Below, piece after piece: positions 1-57,000 of a stretch of DNA of 64,000 bases. This stretch comes from Octopus vulgaris (Eukaryota), in the NCBI GenBank assembly GCA_951406725.2, contig OX597818.1, forward strand, positions 37,882,001 to 37,946,000. Direction: 5' to 3'. Every line of letters starts with the position of its first letter. Within the stretch, counting starts at the first letter, position 1. The position numbers are program-made.

Positions 1-3000
1 GATGATGAAGATGATTCAAAATTAAGAAAATAAATTCTGTTGTGTCTGGGGAAAGTCATTTTCTTTTTGTGCCTTATAATTTAACACATTCACCGGTAAA
101 ATTTCCATTTATTTCTTATTTTTATTTTCCTAAAATTTTCGTAAATTTTGTAAATTTTATTTTCCTAAAATTTTCAATAGTCAAGATTATTGAAAAGGTT
201 GCAAGATGCAACGAAAATTTTAGGAAAATAAAAATAAGAAATAAGTGGAAATTTTACCGGTGAGTGTGTTACATTATAAGGCACAAAAAGAAAATGACTC
301 TCCCCATGCACAACATAATATGCTTCAACACACGAACTCATATAAAGAATCTTGCAAACCAAATCCAAAAACGAAAATAAACAAAAAAAATAAAAACCTA
401 AAATAAAAGACAAAATTCAATATTCGCACTGACCTTTACGTCTAGTATTAGCTTTTGTTTGACTGTTAATAGATAATTTCGGATGAGTTCCTGAAGAAAT
501 CACAGATGGTATACTGCTCATAGTATTAACAACAGGAGACTGAGGTTTATACTTTGAACCTGAAACATTTGAATGAGGAGAAAATTGGTTAAGGAAAGCA
601 ATAAACATTTATAAATATTTTTATAATTAATTAACTGAATTGCCAAATATCCAAAATAGAAAATGCACCAAATTGTTAAAATTGAAAGGCAAACCTGAAA
701 GAAAGTTAAAGATTGCAATGATAAATATAGCAAACCAACTAGAAGAAAGTCCATTTTAATTCTTTGTTTGAGATGTCTAGGTATTGAATGTAAATGTTGT
801 TGCTTAAAGAATACAGTAGAGATTATGTATCAACTCACCTGGGAGATTAATTTATTTGTATTTATATCATATCTATCCAACATCTATGTTTATACGCAGT
901 TTACAGATACATAATCATTGAAAATTCCTCTATAATAATTGGTTAATAAATATTACTAATTAGTTATTTTTCATTCTTTTGTTTCTTGCAGGCATGGCCA
1001 TGTGGTATGATCTTTGCTTCCCAACCACATCTCAGGTTCAACCCCACTGCTTAGCACCTTGGGCAAGTATCTTCTATTATAGCCCCGGGCTGACCAATAC
1101 CTTGTGAGTGGATTTGGTAGACAGAAACTGAAAGAAGCTCATTTTGTATGTATATACACAGACACATGTACCATAGGCTTCTTTCTGTTTCCTTCTACCA
1201 AAACCACTCACAAAGTTTTGGTCAGCTTTGGCTATAGTGGAAGAAACTCGCCCAAAGTGCTACACGATGGGACTGAACCTGAAACCATGGGGCTTGGGAG
1301 CAAACGCCTAACTACACAACCACACCTGCACCTATATATATTTCTTATCACTTTGAGTTTTGCTGGCTCAAATGTCACCTTCCAGTCAATAACCTAAGCT
1401 TTTATCTTGGTTTAAACTGTTTACTGCAATTCACTGCATTTTGCAATTTACTGCATTTGGAATGTCAACAATGTCACATTTTAAACCCGAGAAACGTCTT
1501 GCCTAGTTTTACTGTCCCACTTATAGATTGTATTTGCAATGTTCGAATCAGTTGGTTGATTTCTTTTTCTGAAAATCTAAGCTTATTCAGACTGACAGTT
1601 AGGCATTTACTTACAAAACCAAGTGCTCCAATTATTATTAGTATAAATGTAAATTTGTAGTCAGGATATAAAAGCTGGAGGTTTTAAAGCAGTTGTCCAT
1701 AGTTATCTTCTCTCTGTTTGATTTTCAAAGAGATATTCACATTAGCAGGACAGCTGACCTCTATGATGGTACATATTTTTTCTTGTCTGTCCCAAACAAC
1801 AATATCTAACCTTGTCATGCTTACACTTAACAGATGTTTTGATGGGAATATTCCACCTGTATTCCTTGTGCTTGTATATGTGTATATATTCAATAACGGG
1901 GATTTTCTACATTTATTCCAGGACAGTCTTTTTTCCAAATGGCATTATATATTGTTTTTGTAACATCATGTCACATAGGGAGGTAGTACTTTGATGACAT
2001 TTTTGGGCAGCTGCTAATCACGTGTGTGTTATGTCTTCCACAGAAATATGACATAATGTACATTTATGATTACCTCTTAGAACTCCAAGGGCTTCACTTT
2101 TGTTAATTAGGTATTTAGTAGCAATCTCCTGTCCTTAGATTGCCTCTGAAGTGTGATGTGATGTAGCAGCCACAAGTCCAAGAGAGGCTTCACTTCATGT
2201 CAGTTTTACTATCTTTTTCAAGTCTATGAGAAACATACCTAAACATAGTCATTTTTTTTTTTGGCATACTGAGATTTTCACCTCCAGGTCTTATTTGGGG
2301 TATGCTAACCTGGCTGATTTGGGGTTGAATGGGAGATCATCAAGAAGAGAATACTTTCTGAGATATTGTTTTCTTCACTTCTTGGCACTAAGTTAATGTT
2401 TTTTATTTTTGCTGCTGTTGTTTAGCAAGTGCTGTCTGAGAGAGACTGTGACATTCAAAGGCTGTCTGCAATGATCTCAACCCCCTATTTACTTTATTTC
2501 TTCTTAGGTAAAGCCAGTCGATATCATTATTTTAGTGGAGATTTGCAGTTTATGTTAGAATCTTATGGGCTTTAATGTCTATGGAGTGGATTTCTTCTAC
2601 AGGTTAGTTGAGTATGGAATCAGCACTGGAACTGTAACTGCACTGTGGAATATTGTCCAGTCGTAAGAGGAGAGTACAGACTGCCATATTTTTCTTAGTC
2701 TGGTGTAATATTCTAGGGTCATTCTATCTTTATTCAATGGCCCAGTGGTTAGGGCAGTGGACTCGTGGTCAGAGCATCACAGTTTCGATTCCCAGACTGG
2801 GTGTTGTGTGTGTTTATTGAGTGAAAACACCTAAAACTCCACGAGGCTCCGGCAAGGGTTGGTGGCAACCCCAATTGTACTCTTTCACCCCAACTTTCTC
2901 TCACTCTTTCTTCCTGTTTCTTGAATATGATGTGCGTGTGTGTGTGTATGTATATGTAAGTGTGTGAGAGAAAGAAATAAAGTGTGTATGTGTGAGAGAG

Positions 3001-54000: not shown

Positions 54001-57000
54001 TAATTGTGAGTGTAAGAATTTGGTGGATTTTGGAAAGTGGGGTAAAGAAGAGGGCAATAAAAAGAACCAGGCAAAGAAGAAAGGGAAAAGGAGACAACAC
54101 ACACAAAACAACACCAACACCAAAACCTGAGGGAAGCACGGGGTGGGGGGTCAAAATAGCTAGCCTTCCTTAAACATTCATTTAAAACCCATCAATTGTG
54201 TATCTTAAGTTTCTGTACTAAATGTATAACTCAATTCAGAGGTCTTGTATTAAATACATTCTGTACAGTATCTAAGAAATAGATAAAAACTGGACAAAAG
54301 CAAAAAACTATTTAGAAAATGCTACTTTTGATTTCACAATAAATTACTATTCATTATATTGTAATAACTGACTTGTTAATGCAGTTTTTCATGTCACAGC
54401 TATGATGGTATATATCTACCTTTATTTTGTCTGAGATAGTTTAATATCTTTATTTTATCTCAGGAAGGTCGTTATGCCAATAAACACATACACACACTCA
54501 CACACACACACACTGGTTCGGTTTCACTTTTTTTATTCATCAGCTGGTTAAATGAAGAAATGAAATAGAACTAGTGTTTATTATTGGCATAATGACCCTC
54601 CCTAGATGCAACAAAATCCATTTCAACACACAAGTTCACATCAAGAATCTTACAAACCAAATGCAAAAACTTATGTTTACTTTCTTTTGAAATCACTTAC
54701 AAGGCAAGGTTTAATTTAAAATATAAATGATTAATTTTTATTGATGCAGGGTTTTTTTTTTTCTGTGTGTATTGTAAATTTTTTTTTCCTTGTCTGTTAT
54801 ATTTCAGTTATGCCGCCTAGAAAACGTAATCTGTCAATCAAACATAAATGTCAGCTTCATTTTGTTGAAAGCCCCAAAGAAATTCCACATGGGTTGTTAA
54901 CTCCTATTCCTTGCAGTAATTTCCAAGCAGCTGCCAGATTAACAGAAATAAAAGACAGCCCTTCATGGGTAAGTTGCTTTTTGTTGCATTTGCTTTACTG
55001 TAGGAGGAGCCTTAGGTTATCCTTCATTATCAGACCTAATTGATAGTTTATCTAGGAATACATTATCCAATGTATTCTTAAAGATCTCGGGGGTGTATTT
55101 TGAGGGAGATTTGGTTATGATGTTTGGTTGAGTATCTGCACAGACGTTTTCTTGGTTGATTGTCTACATAAGTTTATATGCCACAGCTGACACCAGAATC
55201 CTAACTCTTTTTGCACAGAGCCTTTTACTTTTAATCAGTATAAGATTGATTTTAAAGATATGTTAAGCCCCTTACTGTATATACTCTTTACTCTTTTACT
55301 TGTTTCAGACATTTGACTGTGGCCATGCTGGAGCACCGCCTTTAATCGAGCAACTCGACCCCGGGACTTATTCTGTGTAAGCCTAGTACTTATTCTATCG
55401 GTCTCTTTTGCCGAACCGCTAAGTGACGGGGACATAAACACACCAGCTTCGGTTGTGAAGCGATGTTGGGGGTACAAACACAAACACTCACACATATATA
55501 TATACATATATATATACATATATACGACAGGCTCCTTTCAGTTTCCGTCTACCAAATCCACTCACAAGGCTTTGGTCGGCCCGAGGCTATAGCAGAAGAC
55601 ACTTGCCCAAGGTGCCACGCAGTGGGACTGAACCCGGAACCATGTGGTTGGTAAGCAAGCTACATACCACACAGCCACTCCTGCGCCTATACTTATATAT
55701 TCCTAAATAATTTTCATTAGTCATTAATTACTTCACACTCTACTAATGCTGGTCTTAATGTGAAATAGATGTCAAAGTATACAGTTTTATATTTAAGAGA
55801 TGAGGAATTATGTACATTATTTACATTTGCCGGATATTTGTCCTCGTCTGATGTTGGCTGGAGGGTATATCAGCCGAAACATTGTGTTAACAACAAACAA
55901 AATGAGGGCAAATATCCGTCAAATGTAAATAATGTATGTTGCTTCTGTGGGCTATGTGGTAAGTAGCTTGCTTAACAACCTCATGGTTCTGGGTTTAGTC
56001 CCACTGCTTGGCATCTTGGGCAAGTGTCTTCTACTATAGCCTTGGGCCGGCCAAAGCCTTGTGGGTGGATTTGGTGGATGGAAACTCAAGGAGGCCCATC
56101 GTATATATATATATATATATATGTGTGTGTGTGTGTGTATATGTTTGTGCTTGTCCCCCTAGCATTGCTTGACAACCGATGCTGGTGTGTTTGTGTCCTC
56201 ATCACTTGACGGTTCGGCGGAAAAGACCAATAGAATAGGTACTGGGCTTACAAAGAATGGGTCCCGGGGTCTATTTGCTAGACTAAAGGCGGTGCTCCAG
56301 CATGGCCGCAGTCAAATGACTGAAACAAGTAAAAGTGTGAAAAAGAGTAAACCTTATATTTCCTTTGACTTTTTTTTACTTTCCCTTAACTCATTTTAAC
56401 AATATGTTCATTTATTTATGTAGGTGTCACCCCAATTCACTGACATTAAAGACCTACCAACCAAACAACAAAGAAAAAGAAACGCTAAAGCTAATGTTGA
56501 AAATGACTGTCCCAAAGAACACAACAAGAGATATGGTTCTCTGCAGTTTTTGAAACCAAGATCTCTTCACAAACCTTTTCAAGATTGCCAGTCATTATCA
56601 AACATAGAAAACATTGTGATTAGTCCAAAGTTTACAAATTCTGAAGACTCATTGAAACCAACATGTCCTTGGAACCTCTTTCAAAATTCTCCTTTGGAAC
56701 AAAAAGACTTTGGCAAAATACTAGTTCCTGATACACCTGAAAGGGAATATGGCTTATCAGTGCGGCACAAACAGTTGAGGAAAATCAAAAAATAATTGAG
56801 TTTTATATGTTGGGTCTTTTATTTATGTGTTATTTATTGCAATAAAGCATTTTATTTATTTAACCTTTCTTTATTTCATGAATATCATGATCAAAAACTT
56901 TCTTTCATTTTATTCCATGATACTTCCATTTCACTTCTTAACTCATGTTTGTTTACCTATTTCTCTGCTACACTCAGCATTATCATTATTGTTTCCCTAT

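What the first reader, a model, noticed from the sequence alone, without database searches (positions are those of the whole stretch)
434..56795. FoxM1 and RHNO1 are head-to-head in a mollusc: possible deep conservation of the human bidirectional gene pair
Seen: a FoxM1-like gene on minus and an RHNO1-like gene on plus diverge, with no other recognisable host gene between them. Both start-codon exons are preceded by splice acceptors, so their 5' ends lie in the intervening DNA. Established: human FOXM1 and RHNO1 are adjacent head-to-head genes co-regulated from a bidirectional promoter, coupling G2/M transcription to 9-1-1/ATR checkpoint signalling and mitotic Pol theta repair. Inference: the linkage may predate the protostome-deuterostome split and has survived the heavy rearrangement of coleoid genomes.
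Basis: partly seen in the sequence, partly recalled or inferred. Interest (0 to 1): 0.85.

Follow-up and report, generated by a model that had tools for sequence, protein, structure and literature searches.

The report
Divergent FoxM-like and RHNO1-like genes
A forkhead gene that looks most like FoxM1 and a clear relative of the DNA-damage gene RHNO1 point away from each other in this invertebrate-looking sequence, as they do in humans, but their coding starts lie 46 kb apart and a shared promoter is only inferred.

Summary
On the minus strand lies the 5' part of a forkhead gene: exons at 8691-7817, 5807-5640, 3380-3137 and 559-434, after which it runs off the window. On the plus strand lies a complete RHNO1/RHINO relative of 176 aa in two coding exons (54808-54968, 56424-56795). 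RHNO1 identity is strong. Three colinear Pfam RHINO matches were found, one above the curated cut-off, and three published 9-1-1-binding motifs sit at almost the human positions. FoxM identity is only half shown. The first half of the forkhead domain is closest to human FOXM1 (55 bits against 42 for FOXK1). The second half is generic, with FOXM1 ranked 29th of 31. No phylogeny was possible. Between the start codons lie 46.2 kb of repeat-rich, CpG-depleted DNA with no recognisable gene at limited sensitivity. New here: the window has one CpG-undepleted island, about 30.5-35.5 kb, roughly midway between the genes. It holds the window's only CGCGCG, next to CCAAT and TTTGAA motifs. It is the likeliest site of both transcription starts, but no transcript data exist. 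The linkage and orientation are supported. A bidirectional promoter and a pre-bilaterian origin remain inferences. The organism was not verified.

The parts
7817..8691 (-). Forkhead gene, large start-codon exon. ATG at 8597-8595, alternative acceptor giving a start at 8663, donor CTA|GTAAGT after 7817, ends in phase 1. It encodes a Ser/Thr/Pro-rich region with no detectable relatives.
   Evidence: Open for 359 codons from stop to stop. It is the only donor scoring 1.5 or more in the exon. Pfam gave only noise. The atlas gave no usable hit and the solved-structure search gave 0 hits.
6250..6284 (-). Candidate 35-nt micro-exon that would repair the reading phase between the large exon and the first forkhead exon. 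Low confidence.
   Evidence: It is the only candidate that passed my acceptor, donor, frame and no-stop filter between 7816 and 5808. Its sites are TTTTTTTAAG| and |GTGAGT. No independent support.
5640..5807 (-). Forkhead domain, first half (helices 1-2 up to G-W-K). Phase 0 at both ends.
   Evidence: Pfam Forkhead 60.6 bits, profile positions 1-50 of 88. Best solved-structure hits are three human FOXM1 chains at 55.0-55.4 bits, next is FOXK1 at 42.3. By my count from the printed alignment, 25 of 50 aligned residues are identical to FOXM1.
3137..3380 (-). Forkhead domain, second half (recognition helix and a short wing), followed by a serine-rich tract. Donor CAG|GTAAGT, phase 1.
   Evidence: Pfam Forkhead 21.8 bits, profile positions 49-85. 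Solved structures: FOXG1 is best at 24.3 bits, and FOXM1 scores 13.0 bits, 29th of 31. FOXM1 is absent from the 20 hits of the longer query.
434..559 (-). Next coding exon of the forkhead gene, phase 1 in and phase 1 out. The gene continues beyond the window's left edge.
   Evidence: Acceptor TGTTTCAG|, donor AAG|GTCAGT, phase-compatible with exon 3380-3137. No Pfam family.
30500..35500 (.). The only CpG-undepleted island of the window. It is the inferred common start region of both genes.
   Evidence: In non-repeated sequence the median CpG observed/expected is 0.23. All 15 top-ranked 1-kb windows of 159 fall in 30001-35250. The 16 windows inside have a minimum of 0.60 and the 140 windows outside have a maximum of 0.64.
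31781..31832 (.). Motif cluster inside the island: TTTGAA, TTCGAA, CCAAT and TCTCGCGCGAA.
   Evidence: CGCGCG and TCTCGCG each occur once in the 64 kb, both here. TTTGAA (46 in the window) and CCAAT (68) are common, so only the CpG-rich part is unusual.
54808..54968 (+). RHNO1-like first coding exon. ATG at 54810, 53 aa, ends ...S-P-S-W, donor TGG|GTAAGT, phase 0.
   Evidence: Pfam RHINO 14.2 bits, E 0.047, profile positions 1-34 of 239. K13, L16 and F18 carry the same numbers as the human Rad9-pocket residues named in PMC12907562.
56424..56795 (+). RHNO1-like second and last coding exon. 123 aa plus TAA, begins V-S-P-Q-F. AATAAA at 56841-56846.
   Evidence: Pfam RHINO 33.9 bits, E 4.4e-8, cut-off 25, best stretch on profile positions 177-218. 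Its first 45 aa alone score 13.8 bits on profile positions 58-99. R89-Y-G-S-L-Q-F95 fits the published K/R-Y/F/K-x-x-L-x-hydrophobic pattern.
52062..53363 (-). Open reverse-transcriptase ORF of a non-LTR retrotransposon. It lies between the genes and is not a host gene.
   Evidence: Pfam RVT_1 127.1 bits.

Best explanation
The window holds the 5' part of a FoxM-class forkhead gene (minus strand) and a complete RHNO1/RHINO orthologue (plus strand). They are divergent neighbours, the same arrangement as the vertebrate FOXM1/RHNO1 unit.

Shown:
- Both gene identities at the level given above.
- Their orientation.
- The need for upstream non-coding exons.
- The lack of any recognisable gene between them.
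- A single CpG-undepleted island midway.

Inferred: both genes start in or beside that island. Each has a non-coding first exon and a first intron of roughly 20 kb filled with SINEs and LINE remains. On this reading the pair is still driven from one unmethylated promoter region, and cell-cycle-type sites there would give joint expression in dividing cells.

The RHNO1-like protein most likely works as in humans. It would be an unstructured adaptor that grips the 9-1-1 clamp. An N-terminal K-x-x-L-x-F motif and a second R-Y-x-x-L-x-F motif would bind the Rad9 pocket. The S-W-V-S-P-Q-F motif would bind Rad1. The intron splits that last motif.
For: RHNO1 identity:
- Three colinear RHINO profile matches at positions 1-34, 58-99 and 177-218 of 239, the last above the curated cut-off.
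- Motif positions 13/16/18, 52-58 and 89-95. The human positions are K13/L16/F18, 55-61 (also given as W56-A64) and K90-F96, as stated in passages of PMC12907562 and PMC8104967.

FoxM:
- The first half of the forkhead domain scores 55 bits to FOXM1, 13 bits ahead of the next class.
- Summed over both halves FOXM1 still leads: 68 bits, against 59 for FOXG1 and 57 for FOXK1 (my addition).

Linkage:
- A forkhead gene as the nearest divergent neighbour of RHNO1 is expected by chance in well under 1 in 1000 cases. My estimate uses about two dozen Fox genes (recalled) among the 38,585 octopus genes that I summed from PMC9476566.

Common start region:
- CpG observed/expected in non-repeated DNA is 0.96 in 31600-34050.
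- It is 0.19-0.37 in the four stretches between the island and the two start-codon exons.
- It is 0.29 in the forkhead gene body and 0.20 in the RHNO1 body.
- Passages of PMC9476566 say octopus methylation sits on the bodies of a subset of genes and is lacking on transposons and intergenic DNA. One gene class there lacks it at the TSS and promoter.
- The window's only CGCGCG lies in the island beside CCAAT and TTTGAA.
Against: - The second half of the forkhead domain does not favour FOXM1.
- The N-terminal exon has no detectable relative, and the C-terminal part lies outside the window.
- The large exon and the first forkhead exon do not join in frame. None of 3 candidate acceptors fits, so the model is incomplete.
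- No donor scoring 5 or more, by my rough recalled weights, lies in the island outside a SINE, so no first exon can be named.
- The island is 5 kb long and is interrupted by a SINE and an inverted repeat, so even two starts inside it could be more than 1 kb apart.
- CpG depletion also continues 7 kb past the RHNO1 stop, so depletion alone does not delimit these two genes.
- SINE orientation gives no sign of transcription direction.
- The solved-structure searches returned no RHINO chain for either exon.
- The organism is unverified.
Confidence: 0.6

Rival explanations
1. The genes are true FoxM and RHNO1 orthologues and are neighbours, but each has its own promoter close to its start-codon exon. 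The 46 kb between them is plain intergenic DNA. On this reading linkage survived but the shared promoter did not.
For: The coding starts are 46,212 bp apart. No strong donor lies in the island. A non-coding first exon may sit only a few hundred bases upstream of each acceptor. One 1-kb window at 8501-9500 reaches CpG observed/expected 0.64, the highest value outside the island.
Against: The flanks of both start-codon exons are as CpG-poor as gene bodies: 0.19 for 8700-20000 and 0.37 for 45000-54800. According to passages of PMC9476566, intergenic DNA in octopus is unmethylated and so should not be depleted. The only island lies midway.
Confidence: 0.25
2. The forkhead gene belongs to another intron-bearing Fox class, such as FoxK, FoxJ2/3 or FoxN, and its place beside RHNO1 is a coincidence or a lineage-specific rearrangement.
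For: The recognition-helix half is generic and ranks FOXM1 29th of 31. No FoxJ-class structure was among the hits, so that class was not compared. The atlas returned only generic forkhead clusters. FoxM is reported lost in some molluscs: C. gigas, per passages of PMC9539403.
Against: The more variable first half of the domain is closest to FOXM1 by 13 bits. Chance adjacency of any Fox gene to RHNO1 is below about 1 in 1000 by my estimate. A squid transcriptome paper lists a foxm1 transcript among cell-cycle genes (passages of PMC11202396).
Confidence: 0.12
3. A third, unrecognised gene (non-coding, or built from short exons) starts at the island and separates the two genes.
For: My gene test only covered ORFs of 70 aa or more, Rfam and tRNAs. 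An unexplained inverted repeat with arms of about 95 nt sits in the island core.
Against: None of the 10 island ORFs has a credible Pfam family. The 13 sub-threshold Rfam matches in the island all score far below their gathering scores (17-29 bits against 49-100), and most, by my reading, sit on simple repeats. The window has one island only.
Confidence: 0.12

Closest known systems
Human/vertebrate FOXM1-RHNO1 bidirectional gene unit (Barger et al. 2021, PMC8104967; passages read)
   Same: The gene families and the head-to-head orientation are the same. In both RHNO1 genes the start codon follows a splice acceptor. A CpG-rich, unmethylated-looking region lies between the genes. E2F-type and cell-cycle-type motifs are plausible in that region.
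   Different: The paper defines bidirectional pairs by transcription starts within 1000 bp and reports one CpG-island promoter for FOXM1/RHNO1. Here the coding starts are 46 kb apart, the starts are unknown, and the island is about 5 kb long and broken by a SINE. The paper claims conservation of the promoter in vertebrates only.
Conserved ancient microsyntenic pairs in 5'-5' orientation, for example HSPE1-HSPD1 (Irimia et al. 2012, PMC3514665; passages read)
   Same: It is a divergent pair of unrelated genes kept together over very long times, which that paper explains by shared cis-regulation.
   Different: FOXM1, C12orf32 and RHNO1 are not named in that paper's main text: 0 occurrences. Conservation here rests on two lineages at most.
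Human RHINO protein and its 9-1-1 contacts (PMC12907562, PMC8104967; passages read)
   Same: The two Rad9-pocket motifs and the Rad1 'SWV' motif lie within 3 residues of the human positions. The protein is small and has no Pfam family other than RHINO.
   Different: It has 176 aa, against a 239-position family profile. By eye I found no KEN box and no R-x-x-L box, although the human protein is reported to carry both (PMC bioRxiv 10.1101/2023.03.16.532763). No binding was tested.
C. elegans ZTF-8, proposed functional RHINO homologue (PMC4199516; passages read)
   Same: It is an invertebrate protein tied to the 9-1-1 clamp through a short N-terminal motif.
   Different: ZTF-8 is a 687-aa zinc-finger protein with 8% identity to RHINO. 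The protein here is RHINO-sized and matches the RHINO profile directly.

Membership tests
RHINO / RHNO1 (Pfam PF15319) | Match to the family profile above the curated cut-off | tested here: met
   The second exon alone scores 33.9 bits against a cut-off of 25, E 4.4e-8. The first exon scores 14.2 bits. The three matched pieces are colinear at profile positions 1-34, 58-99 and 177-218. The exons were searched separately and the joined protein was not searched.
RHINO / RHNO1 (Pfam PF15319) | N-terminal Rad9-pocket motif (human K13, L16, F18) | tested here: met
   The window protein has K13, L16 and F18 in K-H-K-C-Q-L-H-F. The motif definition comes from passages of PMC12907562.
RHINO / RHNO1 (Pfam PF15319) | 'SWV' Rad1-binding motif near residues 55-61 | tested here: met
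   S52-W53 | V54-S-P-Q-F58 lies across the exon junction. The motif's name and position come from PMC8104967 and the W56-A64 range from PMC12907562.
RHINO / RHNO1 (Pfam PF15319) | Second Rad9-pocket motif (human K90-F96) | tested here: met
   R89-Y-G-S-L-Q-F95 fits K/R-Y/F/K-x-x-L-x-hydrophobic.
RHINO / RHNO1 (Pfam PF15319) | Physical binding to 9-1-1 and TOPBP1 | not testable with these tools
   The only evidence is that the C-terminal region matches profile positions 177-218.
FoxM class of forkhead genes | Forkhead DNA-binding domain | tested here: met
   Pfam Forkhead scores 60.6 and 21.8 bits on two exons that abut at profile positions 49-50.
FoxM class of forkhead genes | Domain closer to FoxM than to other classes | tested here: inconclusive
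   First half: FOXM1 55.4 bits against FOXK1 42.3. Second half: FOXG1 24.3 bits, and FOXM1 13.0 bits, 29th of 31. Only solved structures were compared, and no FoxJ-class chain was among the hits.
FoxM class of forkhead genes | Groups with invertebrate and vertebrate FoxM in a phylogeny | not testable with these tools
FoxM class of forkhead genes | FoxM-type N-terminal and C-terminal regulatory regions | tested here: inconclusive
   The N-terminal exon gave no hit in Pfam, the atlas or solved structures. The C-terminal part lies outside the window.
Bidirectional (head-to-head) gene pair with a shared promoter | Divergent orientation with no gene between | tested here: met
   Nothing recognisable lies between the genes. 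Sensitivity was limited to ORFs of 70 aa or more and to known RNA families.
Bidirectional (head-to-head) gene pair with a shared promoter | Transcription starts within about 1 kb (definition used in PMC8104967) | not testable with these tools
   No transcript data were available. The start codons are 46,212 bp apart.
Bidirectional (head-to-head) gene pair with a shared promoter | CpG-rich unmethylated region spanning the starts | tested here: inconclusive
   One island exists at about 30.5-35.5 kb. That the starts lie in it is an inference.
Bidirectional (head-to-head) gene pair with a shared promoter | Co-expression of the two genes | not testable with these tools
   No expression data were available.
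Ancient conserved microsyntenic pair | Linkage present in several distant animal lineages | not testable with these tools
   No eukaryotic genome collection was available. The vertebrate side comes from PMC8104967. The source organism of the window is unverified.

The most novel reading that the evidence does not exclude
FoxM and RHNO1 have been one co-regulated unit since before protostomes and deuterostomes split. In this genome they would still fire from a single unmethylated island that carries cell-cycle sites, even though transposon-filled first introns have pushed the coding parts 46 kb apart. That would mean selection holds together the mitotic transcription factor and the mitotic DNA-repair adaptor, and not merely a compact promoter.
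Probability: 0.35. Interest if true: 0.6.

Novelty: new member of a known kind. Interest (0 to 1): 0.45.

Why it matters
In human cells FOXM1 and RHNO1 are co-expressed from one promoter and act together in replication-stress survival (PMC8104967). If the same pairing exists in a distant invertebrate, the coupling is old and probably functional, not an accident of vertebrate genome layout. It would also give a natural case where the pair stays together while the distance grows about a hundredfold, which separates 'shared promoter' from 'shared neighbourhood' as the constraint. It further shows that a RHINO-family protein with all three clamp-binding motifs exists outside vertebrates. My literature searches found no paper on invertebrate RHNO1 or on FoxM-RHNO1 synteny. 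Public genome annotations, which I could not query, may already show it.

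Tried and rejected
- **Atlas look-alike searches.** The first forkhead exon gave only generic forkhead clusters (scores 0.93, 0.90, 0.90). The large N-terminal exon gave no usable hit.
- **Solved-structure searches.** The two RHNO1 exons and the N-terminal forkhead exon returned no RHINO or FOXM1 chain. The results were 1, 2 and 0 unrelated weak hits.
- **Direct splice from 7817 to the forkhead exon.** None of 3 candidate acceptors fits the reading phase. Only one donor in the large exon scores 1.5 or more. 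A first run with too high a threshold printed nothing.
- **First exons in the island.** No donor scores 5 or more there apart from one inside a SINE. The donor weights are my own rough recalled consensus, not a trained model.
- **SINE orientation as a sign of transcription direction.** There are 29 BLAST pieces at about 20 places, in mixed orientation left of the island. All 3 places between the island and RHNO1 are antisense. That is too few to mean anything.
- **Rfam at a permissive threshold on the island.** It gave 13 matches, all far below their gathering scores, most of them on simple repeats by my reading.
- **CpG peaks outside the island.** In the all-sequence profile the peaks near 15.4-16.0, 19.0-19.6 and 23.4-24.0 kb fall on elements repeated within the window. 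They vanish when repeats are excluded.

Full report
**What is in the window**

The 64-kb window has no N, 37% G+C, and an overall CpG observed/expected of 0.385. One third of it matches other parts of itself. This repeated fraction is mostly a roughly 420-nt SINE-like element, seen as 29 BLAST pieces at about 20 places, plus simple repeats. No tool available could name the organism. The composition, the repeat load and the very long introns are compatible with it. The 50% identity of the forkhead half-domain to human FOXM1 argues against a vertebrate.

**The forkhead gene (minus strand)**

Pfam Forkhead matches two exons that meet at profile positions 49-50 of 88. Exon 5807-5640 scores 60.6 bits and exon 3380-3137 scores 21.8 bits.

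- Upstream lies a 359-codon open frame. It has an ATG at 8597 and a T-rich acceptor at 8693-8692, with an alternative at 8665-8664. Its GTAAGT donor follows 7817, after which the frame reads into a SINE.
- Downstream, exon 559-434 fits the reading phase of exon 3380-3137. Its donor lies at the finding's start coordinate. The gene then leaves the window, so its C-terminal part is unseen.
- The model is incomplete. The donor at 7817 ends in phase 1 and fits none of the 3 candidate acceptors of the first forkhead exon. It is also the only plausible donor in that exon. One 35-nt candidate micro-exon, 6284-6250, would restore the frame, but it has no other support.

**Is it FoxM?**

The joined model was not searched or folded.

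- The first half of the domain hit 44 distinct solved-structure sequences at E up to 0.01. The three best are human FOXM1 at 55.0-55.4 bits, followed by FOXK1/K2 at 41-42 bits. FOXA, FOXG1, FOXP, FOXL2, FOXN3, FOXC2 and FOXO score lower.
- The second half does not agree. As an 81-aa query, FOXG1 is best at 23.6 bits and FOXM1 is not among the 20 hits. As a 30-aa query, FOXG1 scores 24.3 bits and FOXM1 scores 13.0 bits, 29th of 31.
- Adding the two halves, FOXM1 still leads with 68 bits, against 59 for FOXG1 and 57 for FOXK1.
- FoxJ-class structures were not among the hits, so that class was not compared.
- The atlas gave only generic forkhead clusters. The N-terminal exon has no detectable relative.

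From the literature (passages only):
- foxM exists in the annelid Owenia and is counted as lost in the oyster C. gigas (PMC9539403).
- FoxM is reported lost in arthropods (PMC9269926).
- A pygmy-squid transcriptome paper lists a foxm1 transcript among cell-cycle genes (PMC11202396).

**The RHNO1-like gene (plus strand)**

The structure is clean.
- A pyrimidine tract and CAG at 54805-54807 precede the exon, and the ATG is at 54810.
- The first exon encodes 53 codons and ends with the donor TGG|GTAAGT.
- The acceptor is at 56422-56423. The second exon encodes 123 codons, then TAA at 56793-56795, with AATAAA at 56841-56846.

Pfam RHINO matches in three colinear pieces:
- profile positions 1-34 (first exon, 14.2 bits);
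- profile positions 58-99 (first 45 aa of the second exon, 13.8 bits when searched alone);
- profile positions 177-218 (the second exon as a whole scores 33.9 bits against a cut-off of 25).

Published passages name three human RHINO contacts with the 9-1-1 clamp:
- K13/L16/F18, which binds the Rad9 pocket;
- W56-A64, which binds Rad1 (alanine substitution of residues 55-61 gives the 'SWV' mutant);
- K90-F96, a second Rad9-pocket motif with the consensus K/R-Y/F/K-x-x-L-x-hydrophobic (PMC12907562; PMC8104967).

The window protein has K13, L16 and F18. It has S52-W53|V54-S-P-Q-F58 across the intron, and R89-Y-G-S-L-Q-F95. That the hallmark motif is only made whole by the predicted splice also supports the splice model.

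Against: the solved-structure search returned no RHINO chain. By eye I saw no KEN or R-x-x-L box, although the human protein is reported to have both (bioRxiv 10.1101/2023.03.16.532763).

RHINO-like proteins outside vertebrates are not unheard of. The ZTF-8 paper aligns a Nematostella sequence and proposes a worm functional homologue with 8% identity (PMC4199516).

**Between the genes**

The start codons are 46,212 bp apart. In that interval:
- Rfam at gathering score finds nothing and ARAGORN finds no tRNA.
- Of the 137 ORFs of 70 aa or more listed outside the two genes, I picked by eye 20 non-repeated ones lying between the genes and sent them to Pfam. None has a credible family, and the best E-value is 0.082. 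Three further ORFs between the genes also gave no family.
- What is recognisable is transposon-derived: an open reverse-transcriptase ORF at 52062-53363 on the minus strand (RVT_1, 127 bits), and the SINE copies.

This test cannot see short exons or unknown non-coding genes.

**The CpG island**

When sequence repeated within the window is set aside, CpG observed/expected has a median of 0.23 over 159 one-kb windows. All 15 top windows fall within 30001-35250. The 16 windows inside that span have a minimum of 0.60, and the 140 outside have a maximum of 0.64.

By segment:

| Segment | CpG observed/expected (non-repeated DNA) |
|---|---|
| Forkhead gene body | 0.29 |
| 8.7-20 kb | 0.19 |
| 20-31.6 kb | 0.29 |
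| 31.6-34.05 kb (island core) | 0.96 |
| 34.05-45 kb | 0.27 |
| 45-54.8 kb | 0.37 |
| RHNO1 body | 0.20 |
| Downstream, 56.8-64 kb | 0.22 |

Passages of the octopus methylome paper say the following (PMC9476566). Methylation there sits on the bodies of a subset of broadly expressed genes. It is virtually absent from transposons and low in intergenic sequence. One large gene class is methylated across the body and past the 3' end but not at the TSS and promoter.

If this window comes from such a genome, the simplest reading is this. The DNA on both sides of the island is transcribed gene body, meaning long first introns, and the island is the start region of both genes.

The island contains the window's only CGCGCG and only TCTCGCG, at 31824-31832. 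These lie beside CCAAT (31809), TTTGAA (31781) and TTCGAA. The common motifs carry no weight on their own, since the window holds 46 TTTGAA and 68 CCAAT. The island is interrupted by a SINE (31904-32355) and holds an inverted repeat with arms of about 95 nt. No convincing first-exon donor was found. The inference therefore stays indirect. Even if it is right, the two starts could be more than 1 kb apart.

**Comparison with what is known**

Barger et al. describe the human pair as head-to-head genes with a CpG-island bidirectional promoter. They speak of conservation of that promoter in vertebrates (PMC8104967, passages). Irimia et al. showed that many divergent gene pairs are kept across animals, and they explain this by shared regulation. 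Their main text does not name this pair (0 occurrences), and their supplements were closed.

My searches returned nothing on this linkage outside vertebrates:
- FOXM1 + RHNO1 + bidirectional: 33 papers, 15 listed.
- RHNO1 + invertebrate: 3 papers.
- RHNO1 + synteny: 3 papers.
- foxM + cephalopod: 21 papers, 12 listed.
- foxM + octopus + forkhead: 2 papers.

I judged these from titles and abstract openings only. Public genome annotations could not be queried and may already show the pair.

**Verdict**

RHNO1 identity is firm, FoxM identity is probable, and linkage and orientation are real. A shared promoter is plausible from the single midway island but unproven. Deep conservation rests on one unverified lineage plus vertebrates.

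This would be a new member of a known kind, namely conserved divergent gene pairs. It is of moderate interest, mainly because the pair couples mitotic transcription with mitotic DNA repair, and because here the pair appears to persist across a 46-kb gap.

**What stayed unchecked**
- Microsynteny in other animals (no eukaryotic genome collection).
- Transcripts and methylation of the locus.
- The joined spliced proteins (left out by instruction).
- Supplementary tables of the papers cited.

Noticed in passing
window 33273-33367 and 33602-33695: An inverted repeat with arms of about 95 nt (90-98% complementary) lies 234 nt apart around a TG-rich spacer, in the CpG-richest core of the island. It is single-copy in the window. 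It could be a small foldback or MITE-like insertion, or a hairpin-forming transcript. This is unexplained.
   Followed up: partly
window 52062-53363 (-), with 49361-49657 (+) and 47130-47342 (+): A 434-aa open reverse-transcriptase ORF of a non-LTR retrotransposon (RVT_1, 127 bits) has no stop. Two shorter ORFs elsewhere resemble the region after the RT of such elements, by eye only, and have no Pfam hit.
   Followed up: partly
window 45255-46343: A CT-rich low-complexity block of about 1.1 kb is open in several frames (a 362-codon Ser/Leu/Pro 'ORF'). It causes the strongest GC skew in the window (-0.415 in 44001-46000). It looks like a degenerate tandem repeat, not a gene.
   Followed up: no
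about 20 places, e.g. 7401-7794, 16394-16813, 26859-27238, 31904-32355, 55294-55714, 55950-56334: A SINE-like element of about 420 nt occurs in both orientations at 77-94% identity to the reference copy. Two copies fill most of the RHNO1 intron, and one abuts the donor of the large forkhead exon.
   Followed up: partly
window 3137-3290 (-): The second forkhead exon continues straight after the domain into a long serine-rich tract encoded by TCA/TCG-type repeats. The wing after the recognition helix is about 4 residues shorter than in the best-matching solved structures (FOXG1, FOXC2, FOXD3 alignments).
   Followed up: no
window 1477-1944 (-): Two adjacent ORFs (69 and 86 aa) in the forkhead gene's intron look by eye like the tail of a retroelement protein. 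Pfam gave only noise (E 0.05-0.09).
   Followed up: partly
window 56800-64000: The 7 kb downstream of RHNO1 is as CpG-depleted as the gene bodies (observed/expected 0.22 in non-repeated DNA) and has no island. Four ORFs tested there gave no credible Pfam family. It may belong to the tail of RHNO1's methylated domain or to another gene's body.
   Followed up: partly
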